Counted from the stretch's first letter, positions 47,406 through 52,157 are shown. The stretch: DNA of 64,000 bases from Gammaproteobacteria bacterium (GCA_965222615.1 CBDCUI010000009.1:214454-278453); one strand, 5' to 3'. The notes: generated from the sequence alone by a model not told the origin. Translations and numbers: made by a program.

Positions 47406-47602
47406 CTCAGTATTATAAAGAATTAATCAAGTCCCCTCTTCGTTGTATGTATCACTCCCCAACTATTGCACAAAAGATGGGGAGCGAATCATACATATTA
47501 ACTATCTGTTTTATAATAATATTTTCAATTATTTTGTTGAAAAAATAACATAACTAGAGTAAATTTCTCACCAACTTTTTGAGTAATAGATAAATAGTTG
47601 GT

Positions 47603-48253
47603 ATGTTAGAAACATCAACATCCGAAGTGAAAAACTTCAATCACCCAGCTCCTGGGTCGACCATAAAAGTCGAACCAATTCGAACTGTTCAAGCGATTCA
47701 CAAAATTAAAACCATGCTTGAACCTAATCCGCGTAACTATTGTTTATTCGTTCTTGGGATTAATACCGCATTTCGAGCTTCTGAATTACTTTCAATAAAG
47801 ATTGGACAGGTTAAATATTTAAATCCAGGAGATCGGTTAGAAGTTAAACAACCAAAAACGAAAAAGTATCGATCCGTGACAATCAATCAGTCAGCTCATG
47901 ATGCGATACGTCGATTAATTATAGAAAAAGATATAGAAGCTCTCAAAAAAAGAAACTTGAATATCTCTGATGACGATGCATTTCTATTTACTGGCCAACG
48001 CGGATCGTCAGCTCTTAAGGTTTCAACTTTAAACAATATGGTTAAGGATTGGTGTAGAAAAGTTAATCTGAAAGGTAATTTTGGTAGTCACACTCTACGA
48101 AAAACCTGGGGATTTATGCAGCGCAAGAAGCAAGACACCCCTATTCCTTTATTGATGCAAGCATTAGGTCATGCAACTCAAAGACAGACTATGGAATATT
48201 TATGCATTCAAGAAAAAGAAATTGAGAATGTTTATACAGCAATGGAACTATAG
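47603..48253 (+). CDS. FimB/FimE-like tyrosine site-specific recombinase
   Basis: 216 aa. PRNYCLFVLGINTAFRASELLSIKIGQV aligns with FimB ARNYCLTLLCFIHGFRASEICRLRISDI (catalytic Arg). C-terminal HTLRKTWGF...LGHATQRQTMEYL supplies the His-x-x-Arg and His...Tyr catalytic residues. Confidence 0.8.
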   Translation: MLETSTSEVKNFNHPAPGSTIKVEPIRTVQAIHKIKTMLEPNPRNYCLFVLGINTAFRASELLSIKIGQVKYLNPGDRLEVKQPKTKKYRSVTINQSAHDAIRRLIIEKDIEALKKRNLNISDDDAFLFTGQRGSSALKVSTLNNMVKDWCRKVNLKGNFGSHTLRKTWGFMQRKKQDTPIPLLMQALGHATQRQTMEYLCIQEKEIENVYTAMEL

Positions 48254-48374
48254 TAGTGGCTAGGATTTATACAACCTTTCAAAGCTATATATTATTCTAT
48301 GATGTATCCATATACTTTATATAGAATAATGTTACGTTTACTCCTAATGGTGGTGCGCATAATGAGGGTTAAAA

Positions 48375-49384: not shown

Positions 49385-51694
49385 ATGGTAGATCGACTAC
49401 CGCATCTAAGAATGGCTCGAGCAGAGCCGATTAACGAACGACGCCGACGACCAGGATTTGGACCTGGGCGGCCTAAAGACCCTGGTCGTCACGCCCAAGA
49501 GTTAAAAGAAAACCTTGATGAGCATAAAGACTCACCAGAAAACGAATTAGCTGGTTTCGATCCGCGCCACTTACTCAAACTCGAAATCGAAGGCATTGCT
49601 GGTGATGAGCTTTCAAACATTCCAGAATTCAGTGTCGTTACTGAAGAAGGGAGTAACGTAACTGTGTTGTTTGCTACGGAAAGCGCATTGAAAGAATTTC
49701 GTAGTCGATTAGAACAACTTGAAGCAGGTAATCGTGCGACACGTGAGCAAATATTATTTGCAGTTAAGGGATTTGATTATATTACTGCGGATGATCGCCG
49801 AGGCCCCCGGTTAAGCACGGATGGAACGCCAAACAAAGAGCTTTTCATACTGGATGTTGAACTTTGGGCGCTTGATCTTCGTAATGAACGAGATGCGATG
49901 ATCGAATATTTCGTTGAGTTTTGTCATCAATCTAATATTGACATTCGTGATCAAGTTAATCATCCATCGCTTGTTTTGTATCGTGTAGAAACATCTTCTG
50001 ATGGTCTAAACAAATTACTTAACATGCGTGATGTAAGGCGTGTTGACTTACCCCCTCAATATGAATTTGAGATGGAGTTACTTGATGCGACGGTGAACTC
50101 ATTACCAGAAATTAAACCACCACCCGACAACGCACCCACCATAGCAATATTAGATTCAGGAATAGCCAGTGCTCACCCACTTTTAGAGCATGCTGTTGGA
50201 GACGCTCAATCATTTGTTGACGAAGATCCCATCGACCTTGTTGGCCACGGTACTACAGTAGCAGGTCATGCTTTACTTGGTGATGTAGCAACTGTCGCTC
50301 AAAGCGCAACGCATACCGCTGAACTTCGAATACTCAGCGGTAAAATTGGTCAAGGCCGAGATGATGTAACTTTGATTGAAAATCGCATTATTGAGGCGGT
50401 GCAATATTTTAAGGAACACTATAATTGTAGAGTGTTCAACCTATCTATCGGTGTTTATGCTCGCCCTTACCTAGGCGGACACGTTGATAGACTTGCAGCT
50501 ACTATTGATTGGTTATCTCGTGAGTATCAAGTGCTGTTCATTGTCTCGACGGGTAATATCCATTCAAGTGTGCAAGGGCCAGCCAATTGGCGAGAAGGTT
50601 ACCCACGCTATTTGTTGGAAGATGAATTTCGCTTGTTAGATCCTGCTCCAGCATTGAACGCAATAACAGTAGGCGCATTAGCTAATTATGAGGTCGCCCG
50701 AATGGCTGCACGTAATCCTGACGATCCTTCATATCAACCTATTGCGCATCGTGATCAACCATCACCCTTTACGTTGTGTGGTCCAGGTCCAAATGATGCA
50801 ATAAAGCCAGATTTTGCCGACTACGGTGGTAATCGTTATATTGATTCACGCCAAGCACCGCGACCATTAGCAGGAAATGAATTAGGTGAGCTCGGATTAA
50901 GTAATAAATTTGCCACTGGAAACTTGTATAGAGTTTCAGTGGGCACAAGTTTTGCTGCACCTCGTGTTGCACACTGTGCTGCACATATATTACGTCAGTA
51001 TCCCGATGCGTCACCGTCGCTTCTTAGGGCGTTGTTGGCTGCTCATTCAACTGTGCCTACTTCCACAGCGGATTTGGATCTAGACAAATCAGAGGTACTA
51101 CGTCTTGTTGGATACGGTAAGCCCAACAAAGAATATTCACTGTATTCCGAAAACAATCGCGTTACAATTTTGGCCGAAGAGACACTTGCTCCTAATGAAC
51201 ATCACTTCTACCAACTTCCTATGCCGGATGATCTTTTTAAGTCTCCTGCTCGTCGACCTCGACGAATTACTGTTGCTCTCGCACATACGCCACGAGTTCG
51301 ACGAACGCGTTTAAAATACCGGGAAAGTGAGATGTCTTTTCGAATAATTAAAGCCGAGAGCCTTGAATCCGTGACTCAAGCTTATCGGAGGCTGCGGAAA
51401 GATGAGAAAGAAGATCTAATTCCGGAAAGTGATTTCACACCAGGCCCTACGCTGCGTGAAGGTGGTTCATTGCAGTGTGCTACACGCATACTTGGTCAAG
51501 TGGATGAGCGATACCGAAGAAAACCATACTTCTTAGTTGTAACCAATAATGTACCAGATTGGGTTAGCTCAATTGATTCGGAGCCTTATTCGCTTGTAAT
51601 CGTTATTGAAGATCAATCAGACGTTGAAGTAAATCTATATACGCAAATCCAATTAGAGCTACAAGAGCGTGTGCGCACACAGGCTCGGAATTAA
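49385..51694 (+). CDS. Subtilisin-like S8 serine peptidase with large N- and C-terminal extra domains, IetS-like
   Basis: 769 aa. Catalytic triad motifs AILDSGI (Asp), GHGTTVAG (His), GTSFAAPRVAH (Ser). About 240-aa N-terminal and 270-aa C-terminal non-protease regions; no signal peptide, so predicted cytoplasmic. Confidence 0.75.
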   Translation: MVDRLPHLRMARAEPINERRRRPGFGPGRPKDPGRHAQELKENLDEHKDSPENELAGFDPRHLLKLEIEGIAGDELSNIPEFSVVTEEGSNVTVLFATESALKEFRSRLEQLEAGNRATREQILFAVKGFDYITADDRRGPRLSTDGTPNKELFILDVELWALDLRNERDAMIEYFVEFCHQSNIDIRDQVNHPSLVLYRVETSSDGLNKLLNMRDVRRVDLPPQYEFEMELLDATVNSLPEIKPPPDNAPTIAILDSGIASAHPLLEHAVGDAQSFVDEDPIDLVGHGTTVAGHALLGDVATVAQSATHTAELRILSGKIGQGRDDVTLIENRIIEAVQYFKEHYNCRVFNLSIGVYARPYLGGHVDRLAATIDWLSREYQVLFIVSTGNIHSSVQGPANWREGYPRYLLEDEFRLLDPAPALNAITVGALANYEVARMAARNPDDPSYQPIAHRDQPSPFTLCGPGPNDAIKPDFADYGGNRYIDSRQAPRPLAGNELGELGLSNKFATGNLYRVSVGTSFAAPRVAHCAAHILRQYPDASPSLLRALLAAHSTVPTSTADLDLDKSEVLRLVGYGKPNKEYSLYSENNRVTILAEETLAPNEHHFYQLPMPDDLFKSPARRPRRITVALAHTPRVRRTRLKYRESEMSFRIIKAESLESVTQAYRRLRKDEKEDLIPESDFTPGPTLREGGSLQCATRILGQVDERYRRKPYFLVVTNNVPDWVSSIDSEPYSLVIVIEDQSDVEVNLYTQIQLELQERVRTQARN

Positions 51695-51780
51695 AGTTTC
51701 GAATTTCTGCGTGCAAACTCTATGATGAAATCGACAAGATATGCAGTATCGTTTTTAACCATACCACACGTATTTTCACC

Positions 51781-52157
51781 CCCAACTTTTATTAAAAAGT
51801 TAACGCGCCCTATTCTCTTCATTGGCTAACCTTGATGTCCGCTTTTGGCTGTGGTCTCAATAGGTCGATGCAACACTTTGAAATAGAGTGAAAAAAGGCT
51901 GCAAAAGCTAAGAGAAATGCAATTACATCAACATCTTAAGAGTAGATCAATAAAAGATGGCTCGAAGCAAGTAATAATGCAGTATTTAATGTAACCGGTT
52001 CATCCAAAAACAACTCAACACTAAATGGTCATCCGTTTGAGTCAACCTCTTTATTACTAAAAGTTTAGCAAGGTGTTGCATTGACCGATTGAATCGGCAG
52101 TCGTTAGCGGACATTATATGGGTATTAAGATCATTACCCAACAATTAGGCAAAAGTT
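51781..52157. repeat. Conserved noncoding backbone segment of the Tn7-like element (downstream of tniQ); recurs inverted and split in the degenerate copy
   Basis: The reverse complement of 52099-52150 equals 39214-39265; the reverse complement of 51781-51850 equals 45668-45735. Contains AGCGGACAT-type motifs resembling the IS110 insertion flanks. Confidence 0.5.

What the first reader, a model, noticed from the sequence alone, without database searches (positions are those of the whole stretch)
47453..51790. Nested about 4.3-kb cassette (FimB/FimE-like recombinase + AAA ATPase + S8 protease) bounded by 14-15-bp direct repeats and absent from the sister element
CACTCCCCAACTATT (47453-47467) and CACCCCCAACTTTT (51777-51790) flank exactly the block with the 216-aa tyrosine recombinase and the ATPase/protease operon. 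In the degenerate sister copy the homologous left-end gene (45783) abuts the backbone segment directly, with an uninterrupted CTCCCCAACTATTA site at 45722-45741. The cassette therefore looks like a discrete integrative module that entered the transposon backbone by site-specific recombination at a CCCCAACT(A/T)TT core. This would be mobile-within-mobile carriage of a candidate defence operon by a very small (FimB-size) integrase.
Basis: seen in the sequence. Interest (0 to 1): 0.8.

Follow-up and report, generated by a model that had tools for sequence, protein, structure and literature searches.

The report
Tiny-integrase defence cassette inside transposon
A 4.3-kb block carrying an IetAS anti-phage system and its own 216-residue tyrosine recombinase sits between two copies of a 30-bp palindromic recombination site inside a Tn7-like transposon. 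It belongs to a widespread family of self-carried defence cassettes for which I found no published description.

Summary
The inverted sister copy (45666-46404) is collinear with 46793-47467 plus 51780-51849. So 47468-51779 (4.3 kb) is an insertion or deletion, and each junction lies in a copy of CCCCAACTWTT.

These repeats are the left arms of 30-bp palindromic sites (arm | 6-bp centre | arm). A matrix built only from other genomes finds five such sites in the window, against 0.025 expected. They are the two cassette ends, the empty sister site, one next to tniQ, and one where the sister copy is truncated.

The cassette encodes a catalytic-domain-only tyrosine recombinase plus IetA/IetS. It lies inside an 11.6-kb Tn7-like element (46645-58283).

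The recombinase family numbers 245 clusters at E<=1e-30, mostly 185-215 aa. In 58 of 79 genome loci the palindrome lies 128-170 bp upstream of the gene. In the gammaproteobacterial clade, "site - recombinase - defence genes - site" cassettes recur, some in arrays. Cargo includes Gabija, CBASS-like genes, ThsB, PDC-S06 and TIR/deaminase genes.

The two sites flanking a cassette have different, class-specific centres. That suggests exchange of one strand only, as in integrons or CTXphi. Recombinase activity is untested, and my literature searches found no description of the family.

The parts
47455..47484 (+). Site S1 (attL): CTCCCCAACTAT|TGCACA|AAAGATGGGGAG, the left boundary of the cassette, 148 bp upstream of the recombinase ATG
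   Evidence: Matrix score 33.7. The junction with the sister copy lies at 47467/47468. The same position and shape are seen in 58 of 79 homologous loci.
47537..47565 (+). Promoter-like TTGAAA-17-TAAATT between S1 and the recombinase gene (weak evidence)
   Evidence: Consensus scan. The hit count is not above the shuffled expectation. A TTGAC-containing block in the same place is conserved in relatives.
47569..47602 (+). Second palindrome CACCAACTTTTT-N-AAATAGTTGGT (AACT-N19-AGTT) abutting the ATG; a possible operator or accessory binding site
   Evidence: Read from the sequence. The CCAACTWTT motif is enriched here. Equivalent half-sites abut the ATG in gammaproteobacterial relatives. Function is inferred.
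47603..48253 (+). 216-aa tyrosine recombinase: catalytic domain only, with no core-binding or arm-binding domain
   Evidence: PF00589 at 67.8 bits. R58, K85, H163, R166, H190 and Y199 are invariant in 35 homologues. A profile matches only the catalytic domains of XerA (residues 146-312) and XerH (184-353). AlphaFold2 mean pLDDT is 78.6 with residues 1-28 lacking predicted secondary structure (pLDDT below 50 for residues 1-11). Foldseek top hits are XerH, XerA, IntI and Cre.
48375..49379 (+). IetA, the AAA+ ATPase of the IetAS anti-phage system
   Evidence: PADLOC IetA E=2.6e-93. Pfam AAA E=4.3e-29. NCBIfam IteA 230 bits, below its equivalog cut-off of 510.
49385..51694 (+). IetS, the S8 subtilase of the IetAS anti-phage system
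   Evidence: PADLOC IetS E=1.1e-197 over residues 7-768. Pfam Peptidase_S8 E=5.8e-34.
51778..51807 (+). Site S2 (attR): ACCCCCAACTTT|TATTAA|AAAGTTAACGCG, the right boundary of the cassette
   Evidence: Matrix score 26.7 on the plus strand, 28.4 best of both strands. Homology to the sister resumes at 51780.
45708..45737 (-). Empty or excised site in the sister copy: CTCCCCAACTAT|TATTAA|AAAGTTAACGCG, made of the left arm of S1 plus the centre and right arm of S2
   Evidence: Matrix score 30.7; alignment.
52134..52163 (+). Site S3: TTACCCAACAAT|TAGGCA|AAAGTTAATAGA, 36 bp from the tniQ stop codon; a third site of the array
   Evidence: Matrix score 20.5. A near-identical site occurs in L007 at 9546.
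39198..39227 (-). Site S3', the sister homologue of S3. Homology to the main copy ends inside its right arm, where chromosomal sequence begins.
   Evidence: Matrix score 20.2. 57 of 58 positions are identical up to ...AAGTT, after which the sequences diverge.
46645..58283 (-). Host Tn7-like element. L-end terminus TGTGTGATTCTTAGTAAAACC at 46645; R-end terminus at 58283. Contains an HTH gene 57717-58112, tnsA-like 56673-57434, tnsB 54800-56695, tnsC 53798-54787 and tniQ 52199-53785.
   Evidence: Pfam hits to TniQ, AAA_22/TniB and rve_3. tblastn matches to tnsA/B/C homologues in L004 and L012. Terminal motifs and subterminal repeats (D18, I3, I6). The tnsA assignment rests on position only.
51835..52114 (.). 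280-bp MITE-like insertion between S2 and S3. It is not part of the cassette. Its 46-nt terminal inverted repeats match those of the IS30-like element at 42343-43609.
   Evidence: the repeat finder I4, I5, I7; IS30-type ORF.

Best explanation
The block 47468-51779 is a self-contained integrative cassette. Its 216-aa tyrosine recombinase most likely binds as a dimer to a 30-bp palindrome, built as an arm (C)CCCAACTWT, a 6-bp centre TNNNNA, and an arm AAAGTTGGG(G). The circular form would carry one perfect palindrome, attP = CCCCCAACTTT|TGCACA|AAAGATGGGGAG. It recombines with a similar docking site in the target, here CTCCCCAACTAT|TATTAA|AAAGTTAACGCG, in the cargo region of a Tn7-like transposon. 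The result is attL (S1) and attR (S2), which share only the left arm. The reverse reaction leaves the site seen in the sister copy.

The centre always travels with the right arm, and the two centres differ. The exchange point therefore lies at the junction of left arm and centre (the TT at 47466-47467 and 51789-51790). Only one pair of strands is probably exchanged, with the junction then resolved by replication, as in integron attI x attC recombination or CTXphi integration.

The cargo, IetA ATPase plus IetS protease, provides anti-phage defence. Serial insertions at such sites would build small arrays.

Shown: the indel, the sites, their conservation, the cargo identity, and intact catalytic residues. 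Inferred: binding, the strand-exchange mechanism, the circular intermediate, and the direction of the event.
For: The filled and empty sites have breakpoints exactly in the sites.

A matrix from other genomes finds only 5 sites in 64 kb against 0.025 expected, and all five lie at structural junctions of this island.

The site lies 128-170 bp upstream of the gene in 58 of 79 genome loci across phyla, and its arms covary by clade.

In 21 close-clade loci the sequence left of the site is unrelated, while homology starts at the site.

A second site closes the cassette right after the cargo in L001, L003, L004, L007, L012, L015, L080, L081 (twice), L082, L087, L091 and L170-172.

The cargo is defence-related: IetAS; Gabija, AriA-like ATPases, ThsB, NucC-like nuclease, PDC-S06 and PDC-S15; M78+DUF4411, deaminase+TIR and AAA_13; SMODS+patatin.

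The site classes are asymmetric. The left-arm W base is A in 16 of 19 proximal sites and T in 13 of 16 distal sites (Fisher p=1.5e-4). No centre sequence is shared between the proximal and the 17 distal sites.

In L087 and L091 the reconstructed attP arms match at 11-12 of 12 positions, against 6-7 for the integrated attL.

The catalytic residues R-K-H-R-H-Y are invariant.

IetAS has 43-46% GC against 34-39% for the transposon backbone.
Against: There are no reads, no circular junction and no assay, so recombinase activity and the direction of the event are unproven.

Only one filled/empty pair exists for this cassette.

Non-identical centres are unusual for tyrosine recombinases, and the one-strand model is inferred only from patterns.

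The attP-arm symmetry test is not significant overall (99 vs 98 matches).

The one recombinase sequence seen on many contigs (P0087) was in one locus, not in several contexts.

Most distant family members have a single site, or inverted site pairs, or sit on plasmids and phages. The ancestral role may therefore be resolution or inversion.

The window's TniQ has no relatives, so other copies of this transposon could not be compared.
Confidence: 0.7

Rival explanations
1. Integron-like platform rather than a self-mobile module. The array of sites (S1, S2, S3) would be a built-in cargo-exchange platform of the Tn7-like element. The recombinase would serve it in trans, moving recombinase-less cassettes in and out. 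Its own gene would sit between two sites without being the unit that normally moves.
For: A third site lies 36 bp from the tniQ stop codon and has a sister homologue. Arrays containing segments without a recombinase gene occur in L001, L080 and L081. The distal-site centre TGCGGA followed by ATAGTT recurs in five unrelated loci, as expected for a standard docking site. Tn7 itself carries a class 2 integron near its left end (own knowledge).
Against: In the window, the unit that is present in one copy and absent in the other contains the recombinase gene. In 21 loci conservation starts at the site just upstream of the recombinase gene, so the gene travels with its site. Most loci are not in Tn7-like elements. 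The segments between sites that lack a recombinase gene include ordinary-looking genes such as ZnuA and ABC-3 in L080.
Confidence: 0.15
2. The recombinase is mainly a resolvase or a DNA invertase (a phase switch), as small plasmid-borne and FimB-type enzymes are. On this view the cassette indel is a rare side reaction between two sites that happen to lie in direct orientation.
For: Ten distant loci have two inverted sites 120-131 bp apart upstream of the gene, and L030 has inverted sites flanking the gene. Relatives occur on circular 11-13-kb contigs, on 695 plasmid records and on 72 viral contigs. Most distant loci have only one site. The enzyme is FimB-sized and lacks a core-binding domain.
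Against: In the window's own clade (>=62% identity), direct site pairs bracket the recombinase gene plus defence cargo in at least 12 loci. No inverted pair is present in the window; the second palindrome there has 19-nt spacing rather than 10. The left flanks differ between loci, as expected for insertions.
Confidence: 0.1
3. The repeats played no enzymatic role. The sister lost the block, or the main copy gained it, by microhomology-mediated deletion or illegitimate recombination at a chance 11-bp repeat.
For: Short direct repeats can mediate replication-slippage deletions, and only one filled/empty pair is available.
Against: The repeat is the conserved arm of a palindrome found next to homologous recombinase genes in dozens of genomes. 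Only 0.025 such sites are expected per window, yet five are found, all at junctions.
Confidence: 0.02

Closest known systems
Integrons (IntI, attI/attC cassettes), including the class 2 integron carried by Tn7 and the defence-rich sedentary chromosomal integrons
   Same: Both use a tyrosine recombinase. Both have cassettes delimited by short recombination sites whose conserved ends read RYYYAAC...GTTRRRY (here CCCAAC...GTTGGG). Both form arrays and sit in the cargo region of a Tn7-family element. Both carry anti-phage cargo (bioRxiv 10.1101/2024.07.02.601686). In both, the partner sites have non-identical central parts, which fits exchange of one strand only.
   Different: The recombinase is 216 aa with no core-binding domain and no IntI-specific insertion; TIGR02249 scores 21.9 bits against a cut-off of 265. 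Its gene rides inside the cassette and is co-oriented with the cargo. The sites are 30-bp simple palindromes, not 55-140-bp folded attC sites. The cassettes are multi-gene operons of 1.6-9 kb.
FimB/FimE-type small tyrosine DNA invertases
   Same: They are about 200 aa and essentially catalytic-domain only. Distant members of this family have inverted site pairs about 125 bp apart just upstream of their own gene.
   Different: PRK09870 and PRK09871 score 19.9 and 23.4 bits against cut-offs of 221 and 222. In the window the sites are direct and bracket a presence/absence polymorphism, not an invertible promoter.
Xer/dif systems, Xer-exploiting integrative elements (IMEX, e.g. CTXphi) and Acinetobacter pdif modules
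   Same: The nearest sequence and structure relatives are XerA and XerH. The site has an arm / 6-bp centre / arm layout like dif. Modules are flanked by such sites. Integration occurs despite centre heterology, as in CTXphi (own knowledge).
   Different: One self-encoded enzyme acts instead of host XerC and XerD. The Xer models score far below their cut-offs. The site has no sequence similarity to dif. The elements are not at the replication terminus in the window.
Cre/loxP-type single-protein systems and small tyrosine recombinases of plasmids
   Same: A single small recombinase acts on a palindromic site next to its gene. Relatives occur on plasmids and phages.
   Different: Cre has a core-binding domain and needs identical 8-bp spacers. 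Here cargo cassettes are integrated in chromosomes and in a transposon, and the centres differ.
Small serine recombinases as markers of anti-phage defence loci (RADS; PMC13552941)
   Same: A small site-specific recombinase gene sits immediately next to diverse defence systems.
   Different: The enzyme superfamily is different. That study found tyrosine-recombinase baits (Bacteroides tsr25 type) unreliable across phyla and did not describe this family or its sites.

Membership tests
Tyrosine recombinase superfamily (PF00589) | Catalytic-domain match above the Pfam gathering score | tested here: met
   67.8 bits against a cut-off of 27.1, over residues 42-203
Tyrosine recombinase superfamily (PF00589) | Catalytic residues R-K-H-R-H/W-Y present | tested here: met
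   R58, K85, H163, R166, H190 and Y199 are invariant in the 35-sequence alignment A1
FimB/FimE tyrosine-type DNA invertases | Score above the curated family cut-off (NCBIfam PRK09870/PRK09871) | tested here: not met
   19.9 and 23.4 bits against cut-offs of 221 and 222
FimB/FimE tyrosine-type DNA invertases | Inverted repeats bounding an invertible segment next to the gene | tested here: not met
   In the window, S1 and S2 are direct and bound an indel. Inverted pairs are seen only in distant relatives.
Integron | IntI-type integrase (TIGR02249; about 320 aa with the IntI-specific insertion) | tested here: not met
   21.9 bits against a cut-off of 265. The protein is 216 aa and aligns only to catalytic domains.
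Integron | attC sites: 55-140-bp imperfect inverted repeats (R''-L''...L'-R') recombined as folded single strands | tested here: not met
   The sites are 30-bp palindromes with a 6-bp centre. Their ends resemble RYYYAAC/GTTRRRY, but the L boxes and the long spacer are absent.
Integron | Integrase gene outside the array and divergent from it | tested here: not met
   The recombinase gene lies between S1 and S2 and is co-oriented with the cargo
Xer recombinases / dif | Score above the XerC, XerD, XerA or XerS equivalog cut-offs | tested here: not met
   XerA 60.9 vs 220; XerC 48 vs 335; XerD 41.5 vs 330; XerS 39 vs 267
Xer recombinases / dif | Site of about 28 bp with two arms and a 6-bp centre | tested here: inconclusive
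   The conservation pattern fits arm | TNNNNA | arm. Cleavage positions are unknown, and there is no sequence similarity to dif.
IetAS anti-phage system | Adjacent IetA (AAA ATPase) and IetS (S8 protease) genes | tested here: met
   PADLOC IetA E=2.6e-93 and IetS E=1.1e-197, with the genes 5 bp apart. The NCBIfam equivalog cut-offs are not reached (230 vs 510; 147 vs 900), so this is a divergent member.
IetAS anti-phage system | Protection against phage | not testable with these tools
   Needs a plaque assay
Tn7-like transposon (host element) | tnsB (DDE), tnsC (AAA+) and tniQ/tnsD genes in an operon | tested here: met
   AAA_22 E=1e-11 with TniB 22.1 bits (cut-off 22.4); TniQ 25.4 bits (cut-off 27); weak rve_3. 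tblastn gives 33% identity to tnsB/tnsC homologues in L004, E=1.5e-78 and 3e-52. The individual Pfam scores are borderline.
Tn7-like transposon (host element) | TnsA endonuclease | tested here: inconclusive
   The 253-aa ORF upstream of tnsB has no Pfam or NCBIfam hit. It shows only 22% identity to ORFs in the same position in L004 and L012.
Tn7-like transposon (host element) | Termini beginning TGT with several subterminal repeats | tested here: met
   46645 TGTGTGATTCTTAGTAAAACC...; 58283 (reverse complement) TGTTGTAGTTCCTAGTAATACC...; repeated 20-nt motifs. No clear 5-bp target duplication was seen.

The most novel reading that the evidence does not exclude
These elements would be a previously undescribed, widespread counterpart of integrons. 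Catalytic-domain-only tyrosine recombinases would ride inside their own cassettes and dock at 30-bp palindromic sites by exchanging one strand pair at the arm/centre boundary, tolerating different centres. They would thereby assemble and shuffle arrays of anti-phage systems in chromosomes and inside Tn7-like transposons. Sister clades of the same enzyme family would act as invertases or plasmid resolvases.
Probability: 0.4. Interest if true: 0.8.

Novelty: new variant of a known kind. Interest (0 to 1): 0.65.

Why it matters
It would add a compact route by which anti-phage systems move: a recombinase of about 200 residues, a 30-bp site and a defence operon travelling as one unit, able to nest inside a transposon.

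It also offers a practical marker. The recombinase plus its palindrome delimits cargo precisely. The unknown genes found between such sites (for example in L082, L091 and L011) become candidate new defence systems.

A single small protein acting on a 30-bp site, possibly tolerant of spacer heterology, could interest genome engineers.

The family also offers a natural series for studying how one minimal enzyme is used for three outcomes: integration, inversion and resolution.

Tried and rejected
(1) I searched for relatives of the host transposon through its TniQ. No homologue exists at E<=1e-10 in 5.8 billion proteins, so 'other copies with or without the block' could not be tested.

(2) I looked for the same recombinase in different contexts. 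P0087, seen on 15 contigs, turned out to be one locus with local variants. P0047 also gave one context. P0001, the window's own protein, is not in the contig index.

(3) I tested whether reconstructed attP arms are more symmetric than the integrated sites. This is clear in L087, L091, L080 and L003 but not overall (99 vs 98 matches).

(4) I searched viral contigs for the inferred docking-site consensus CCAACTATTGCGGAATAGTTRG and found no match.

(5) An Rfam search of 38.5-58.6 kb at E<=0.1 found nothing, so the sites and the MITE are not known RNA elements.

(6) The promoter and terminator scans were not above shuffled expectation.

(7) Seven full-text literature searches and four papers read gave no description of this recombinase family or site. 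The library lacks most subscription journals, so absence is not proof.

(8) I looked for circular-contig signatures among the fetched loci. Only three distant, plasmid-sized contigs showed them, and no excised cassette did.

(9) Chance repeats were rejected. Membership of the FimB/FimE, IntI and Xer families was rejected.

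
Full report
**Observation.** The repeat finder shows two inverted repeats. The first pairs 45811-46404 with 46793-47386 (594 nt, 94%). The second pairs 45666-45735 with 51780-51849 (70 nt, 97%). A three-way alignment shows the reverse-complemented sister running with the left flank up to ...ACTCCCCAACTATT and then, without a gap, with the right flank from ATTAAAAAGTTAACGCGCC. So 47468-51779 is present in one copy and absent from the other, and each junction lies in a copy of CCCCAACTWTT. 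The block holds three co-oriented genes: a 216-aa PF00589 protein, an AAA ATPase and an S8 protease.

**What the repeats are.** I fetched 79 genome loci encoding relatives of the recombinase and looked upstream of each gene. In 58 of them a palindrome of the form xxxxAACT-N10-AGTTxxxx lies 128-170 bp before the start codon. The outer arm bases covary by clade, for example CACTAACT...AGTTAGTG in cyanobacteria and CCCCAACT...AGTTGGGG in Gammaproteobacteria.
- The consensus reads CTCnYYAACTWT | TNNNNA | AAAGTTRRnGAG, two arms around a 6-bp centre, an architecture like dif.
- The window's 14-15-bp repeats are the left arms of two such sites. S1 is 47455-47484, CTCCCCAACTAT|TGCACA|AAAGATGGGGAG. S2 is 51778-51807, ACCCCCAACTTT|TATTAA|AAAGTTAACGCG.
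- The sister site (45708-45737, minus strand) is CTCCCCAACTAT|TATTAA|AAAGTTAACGCG, which is the left arm of S1 joined to the centre and right arm of S2.
- A matrix built only from the other genomes scores >=20 at five places in the window, against 0.025 expected from 200 Markov-1 simulations. These are S1, S2, the sister site, S3 at 52134 (36 bp from the tniQ stop codon), and S3' at 39198.
- S3' is the sister's homologue of S3. The two are identical at 57 of 58 positions up to ...AAGTT, and homology stops inside the right arm, where chromosomal sequence begins. Every strong site in the window therefore marks a structural junction.

**The genes.**
- The recombinase matches only the catalytic domains of XerA (residues 146-312) and XerH (184-353) among solved structures.
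- The AlphaFold2 model (mean pLDDT 78.6) shows residues 1-28 without predicted secondary structure (pLDDT below 50 for residues 1-11), followed by the catalytic fold. Foldseek ranks XerH, XerA, IntI and Cre highest.
- R58, K85, H163, R166, H190 and Y199 are invariant in 35 homologues.
- The protein fails every curated family cut-off: XerA 60.9 vs 220, XerC 48 vs 335, integron integrase 21.9 vs 265, FimE and FimB 23.4 and 19.9 vs about 221. It is FimB-like in size and domain content only.
- The other two genes are IetA (PADLOC E=2.6e-93) and IetS (E=1.1e-197). The NCBI equivalog cut-offs are not reached, so this is a divergent IetAS.
- IetAS has 43-46% GC, against 34-39% for the surrounding transposon.

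**Host element.** On the minus strand lie tniQ (52199-53785), tnsC (53798-54787), tnsB (54800-56695) and a tnsA-positioned ORF (56673-57434). tnsB and tnsC are 33% identical to counterparts in L004. Termini beginning TGT, with repeated subterminal motifs, are at 46645 and 58283. The element is 11.6 kb. Its whole cargo region reads S3 - a 280-bp MITE - S2 - IetS/IetA/recombinase - S1 - a 135-aa gene - L-end. The sister is a truncated, IS-riddled relative placed head to head with it. Its L-end terminus is at 46541, and it has no transposition genes.

**The family and its cargo.**
- A word-indexed search found 2,467 relatives. An exhaustive profile search found 245 clusters at E<=1e-30 and 2,125 at E<=1e-10, mostly 185-215 aa.
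- In the window's own clade (>=62% identity, largely Gammaproteobacteria) the sequence left of the proximal site is unrelated between 21 loci, while conservation begins at the site. This is the signature of an element boundary.
- A second site closes the unit just after the cargo in L001, L003, L004, L007, L012, L015, L080, L081 (two cassettes), L082, L087/88, L091 and L170-172. Unit sizes range from 1.6 to 9.5 kb.
- The cargo is overwhelmingly defence-related. Gabija GajA/GajB occurs in L003, L004, L005 and L092, and by similarity in L012. AriA/ATPase-Toprim-like proteins occur in L001 and L015. ThsB is in L082, a NucC-like nuclease in L083, PDC-S06 in L086, PDC-S15 in L091, and a PbeA/type IV restriction-like protein in L007. 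Peptidase M78 plus DUF4411 is in L080; a deaminase with TIR and an AAA_13 protein are in L081. SMODS plus patatin (CBASS-like) is in L170-172.
- L080, L081 and L001 show three to five sites in a row, with some segments lacking a recombinase gene.

**Where the crossover lies.**
- In the window the centre travels with the right arm. The sister site has S2's centre TATTAA, and S1 has TGCACA.
- Across the clade the proximal and distal sites form two classes. Proximal centres are TACACA, TACATA, TATACA or TGCACA. Distal centres are TGCGGA, TGCCGA, TGACNA, TCCGTA or TATTAA. No centre sequence is shared between the proximal and the 17 distal sites.
- The W base of the left arm is A in 16 of 19 proximal sites and T in 13 of 16 distal sites (Fisher p=1.5e-4). 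The mirror base of the right arm shows the opposite bias (p=0.005).
- This fits an element-borne attP with T-type arms and a TACAYA-type centre recombining with A-type docking sites. The exchange would occur between the W base and the centre.
- The two centres differ, and the proximal site always keeps the element-type centre. Complete two-strand exchange followed by random repair is therefore unlikely. Exchange of one strand pair followed by replication would give exactly this pattern. That mechanism is established for integron attI x attC and for CTXphi/dif (own knowledge). It is an inference, not a result.
- In L087 and L091 the reconstructed attP arms are 11-12 of 12 symmetric, against 6-7 for the integrated attL. 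Over all 12 pairs the test is not significant.

**The wider family.**
- Ten more distant loci have two sites in inverted orientation 120-131 bp apart just upstream of the gene, and L030 has inverted sites flanking the gene itself. These look like invertible switches.
- Three metagenome contigs of 11-13 kb are circular. 695 plasmid records and 72 viral contigs encode relatives at no more than 56% identity.
- The family therefore probably covers resolution, inversion and integration. The cassette lifestyle is documented only for the window's clade.

**Comparison with known systems.** The closest analogues are listed here.
- Integrons have short-site-bounded cassettes in arrays. Tn7 carries a class 2 integron, and chromosomal integrons store defence systems.
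- IMEX elements and pdif modules use dif-like sites and tolerate centre heterology.
- FimB/FimE are enzymes of comparable size.
- Cre/lox is a single protein acting on a palindromic site.
- Small serine recombinases were recently reported to be linked to defence loci (PMC13552941).

The window's element is a member of none of these (and the membership table). Seven literature searches and four papers read gave no description of this recombinase family or its site. The library is incomplete, so I rate the finding a new variant of a known kind, not categorically new.

**Limits.**
- Nothing shows that the enzyme is active, and no circle was seen.
- Only one filled/empty pair exists for this cassette, and the direction of the event (gain or loss) is unknown.
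- The host transposon has no relatives to compare.
- The attempt to find one recombinase sequence in several contexts failed.

**Verdict.** Confidence in the integrative-cassette explanation is 0.7, and interest is 0.65.

Noticed in passing
window 51835-52114; 42343-43609: A 280-bp MITE-like unit with 46-nt terminal inverted repeats sits between sites S2 and S3. Its repeats match the ends of a full IS30-like element (ORF 42427-43587, HTH_38 plus rve) in the sister copy. Without the MITE, S2 and S3 would be only about 46 bp apart.
   Followed up: partly
window 40852-42269, 44245-45646, 39335-40378: Two identical IS110-family copies each abut an IS30-type terminal repeat (one at 45666-45680). 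This suggests an IS110 that targets the inverted repeats of another IS. A third, different IS110-family gene lies at 39335-40378.
   Followed up: partly
window 46541-46645: Two Tn7-like left ends face each other head to head, 103 bp apart. The sister copy has the left end and the cargo region but no tnsABC or tniQ.
   Followed up: partly
window 39198-39227 vs 52134-52163: The sister's homology to the main element ends inside the right arm of site S3', where chromosomal DNA begins (a 4HBT thioesterase gene, 38708-39136). The loss of the sister's transposition genes may therefore also have been a site-specific event.
   Followed up: partly
L029, L046, L053, L059, L067, L069, L071, L076, L078, L079; L030: In more distant recombinase clades, two sites in inverted orientation lie 120-131 bp apart just upstream of the gene. 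In L030 inverted sites flank the gene itself. These look like small invertible switches.
   Followed up: partly
L161-L168, about 1.03 kb upstream of the recombinase gene: A canonical dif-like site (ATATGCGCATAATGTATATTATGTTAAAT) is followed by about 50 nt that differ between otherwise identical metagenome contigs. This is a variable spot right next to dif.
   Followed up: no
L110, L120, L144: These contigs have terminal overlaps of 101-127 nt, meaning they are circular molecules of 11-13 kb carrying a recombinase homologue (about 50% identity). They are probably small plasmids or phage genomes.
   Followed up: no
P0154, P0170, P0171, P0190, P0213: The recombinase domain occupies residues 3 to about 197 of proteins 500-640 aa long. 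These are fusions with an unknown C-terminal part.
   Followed up: no
window 52199-53785: The 528-aa TniQ of the host transposon has no relative at E<=1e-10 among 5.8 billion proteins. The tnsA-positioned ORF (56673-57434) matches no Pfam or NCBIfam model.
   Followed up: partly
window 47569-47602: A second palindrome with the same half-sites but 19-nt spacing overlaps the recombinase ribosome-binding site and ATG. It is conserved in gammaproteobacterial relatives and may serve autoregulation.
   Followed up: partly
L004 8521-9090 and L012 3647-9768: In two other genomes the recombinase cassette lies next to Tn7-like tnsA/B/C genes, but on the tnsA side rather than the tniQ side as in the window.
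   Followed up: partly
window 30167-38689: A 2,840-aa ORF contains internal repeats, shown by a regular series of antisense ORFs about 414 bp apart. It lies just left of the island and is probably a large repeat adhesin.
   Followed up: no
L082 1620-3835; L091 2180-4539; L011 1510-8090: Genes with no PADLOC match sit between a recombinase and its distal site, next to known defence genes. They are candidate new defence genes.
   Followed up: no
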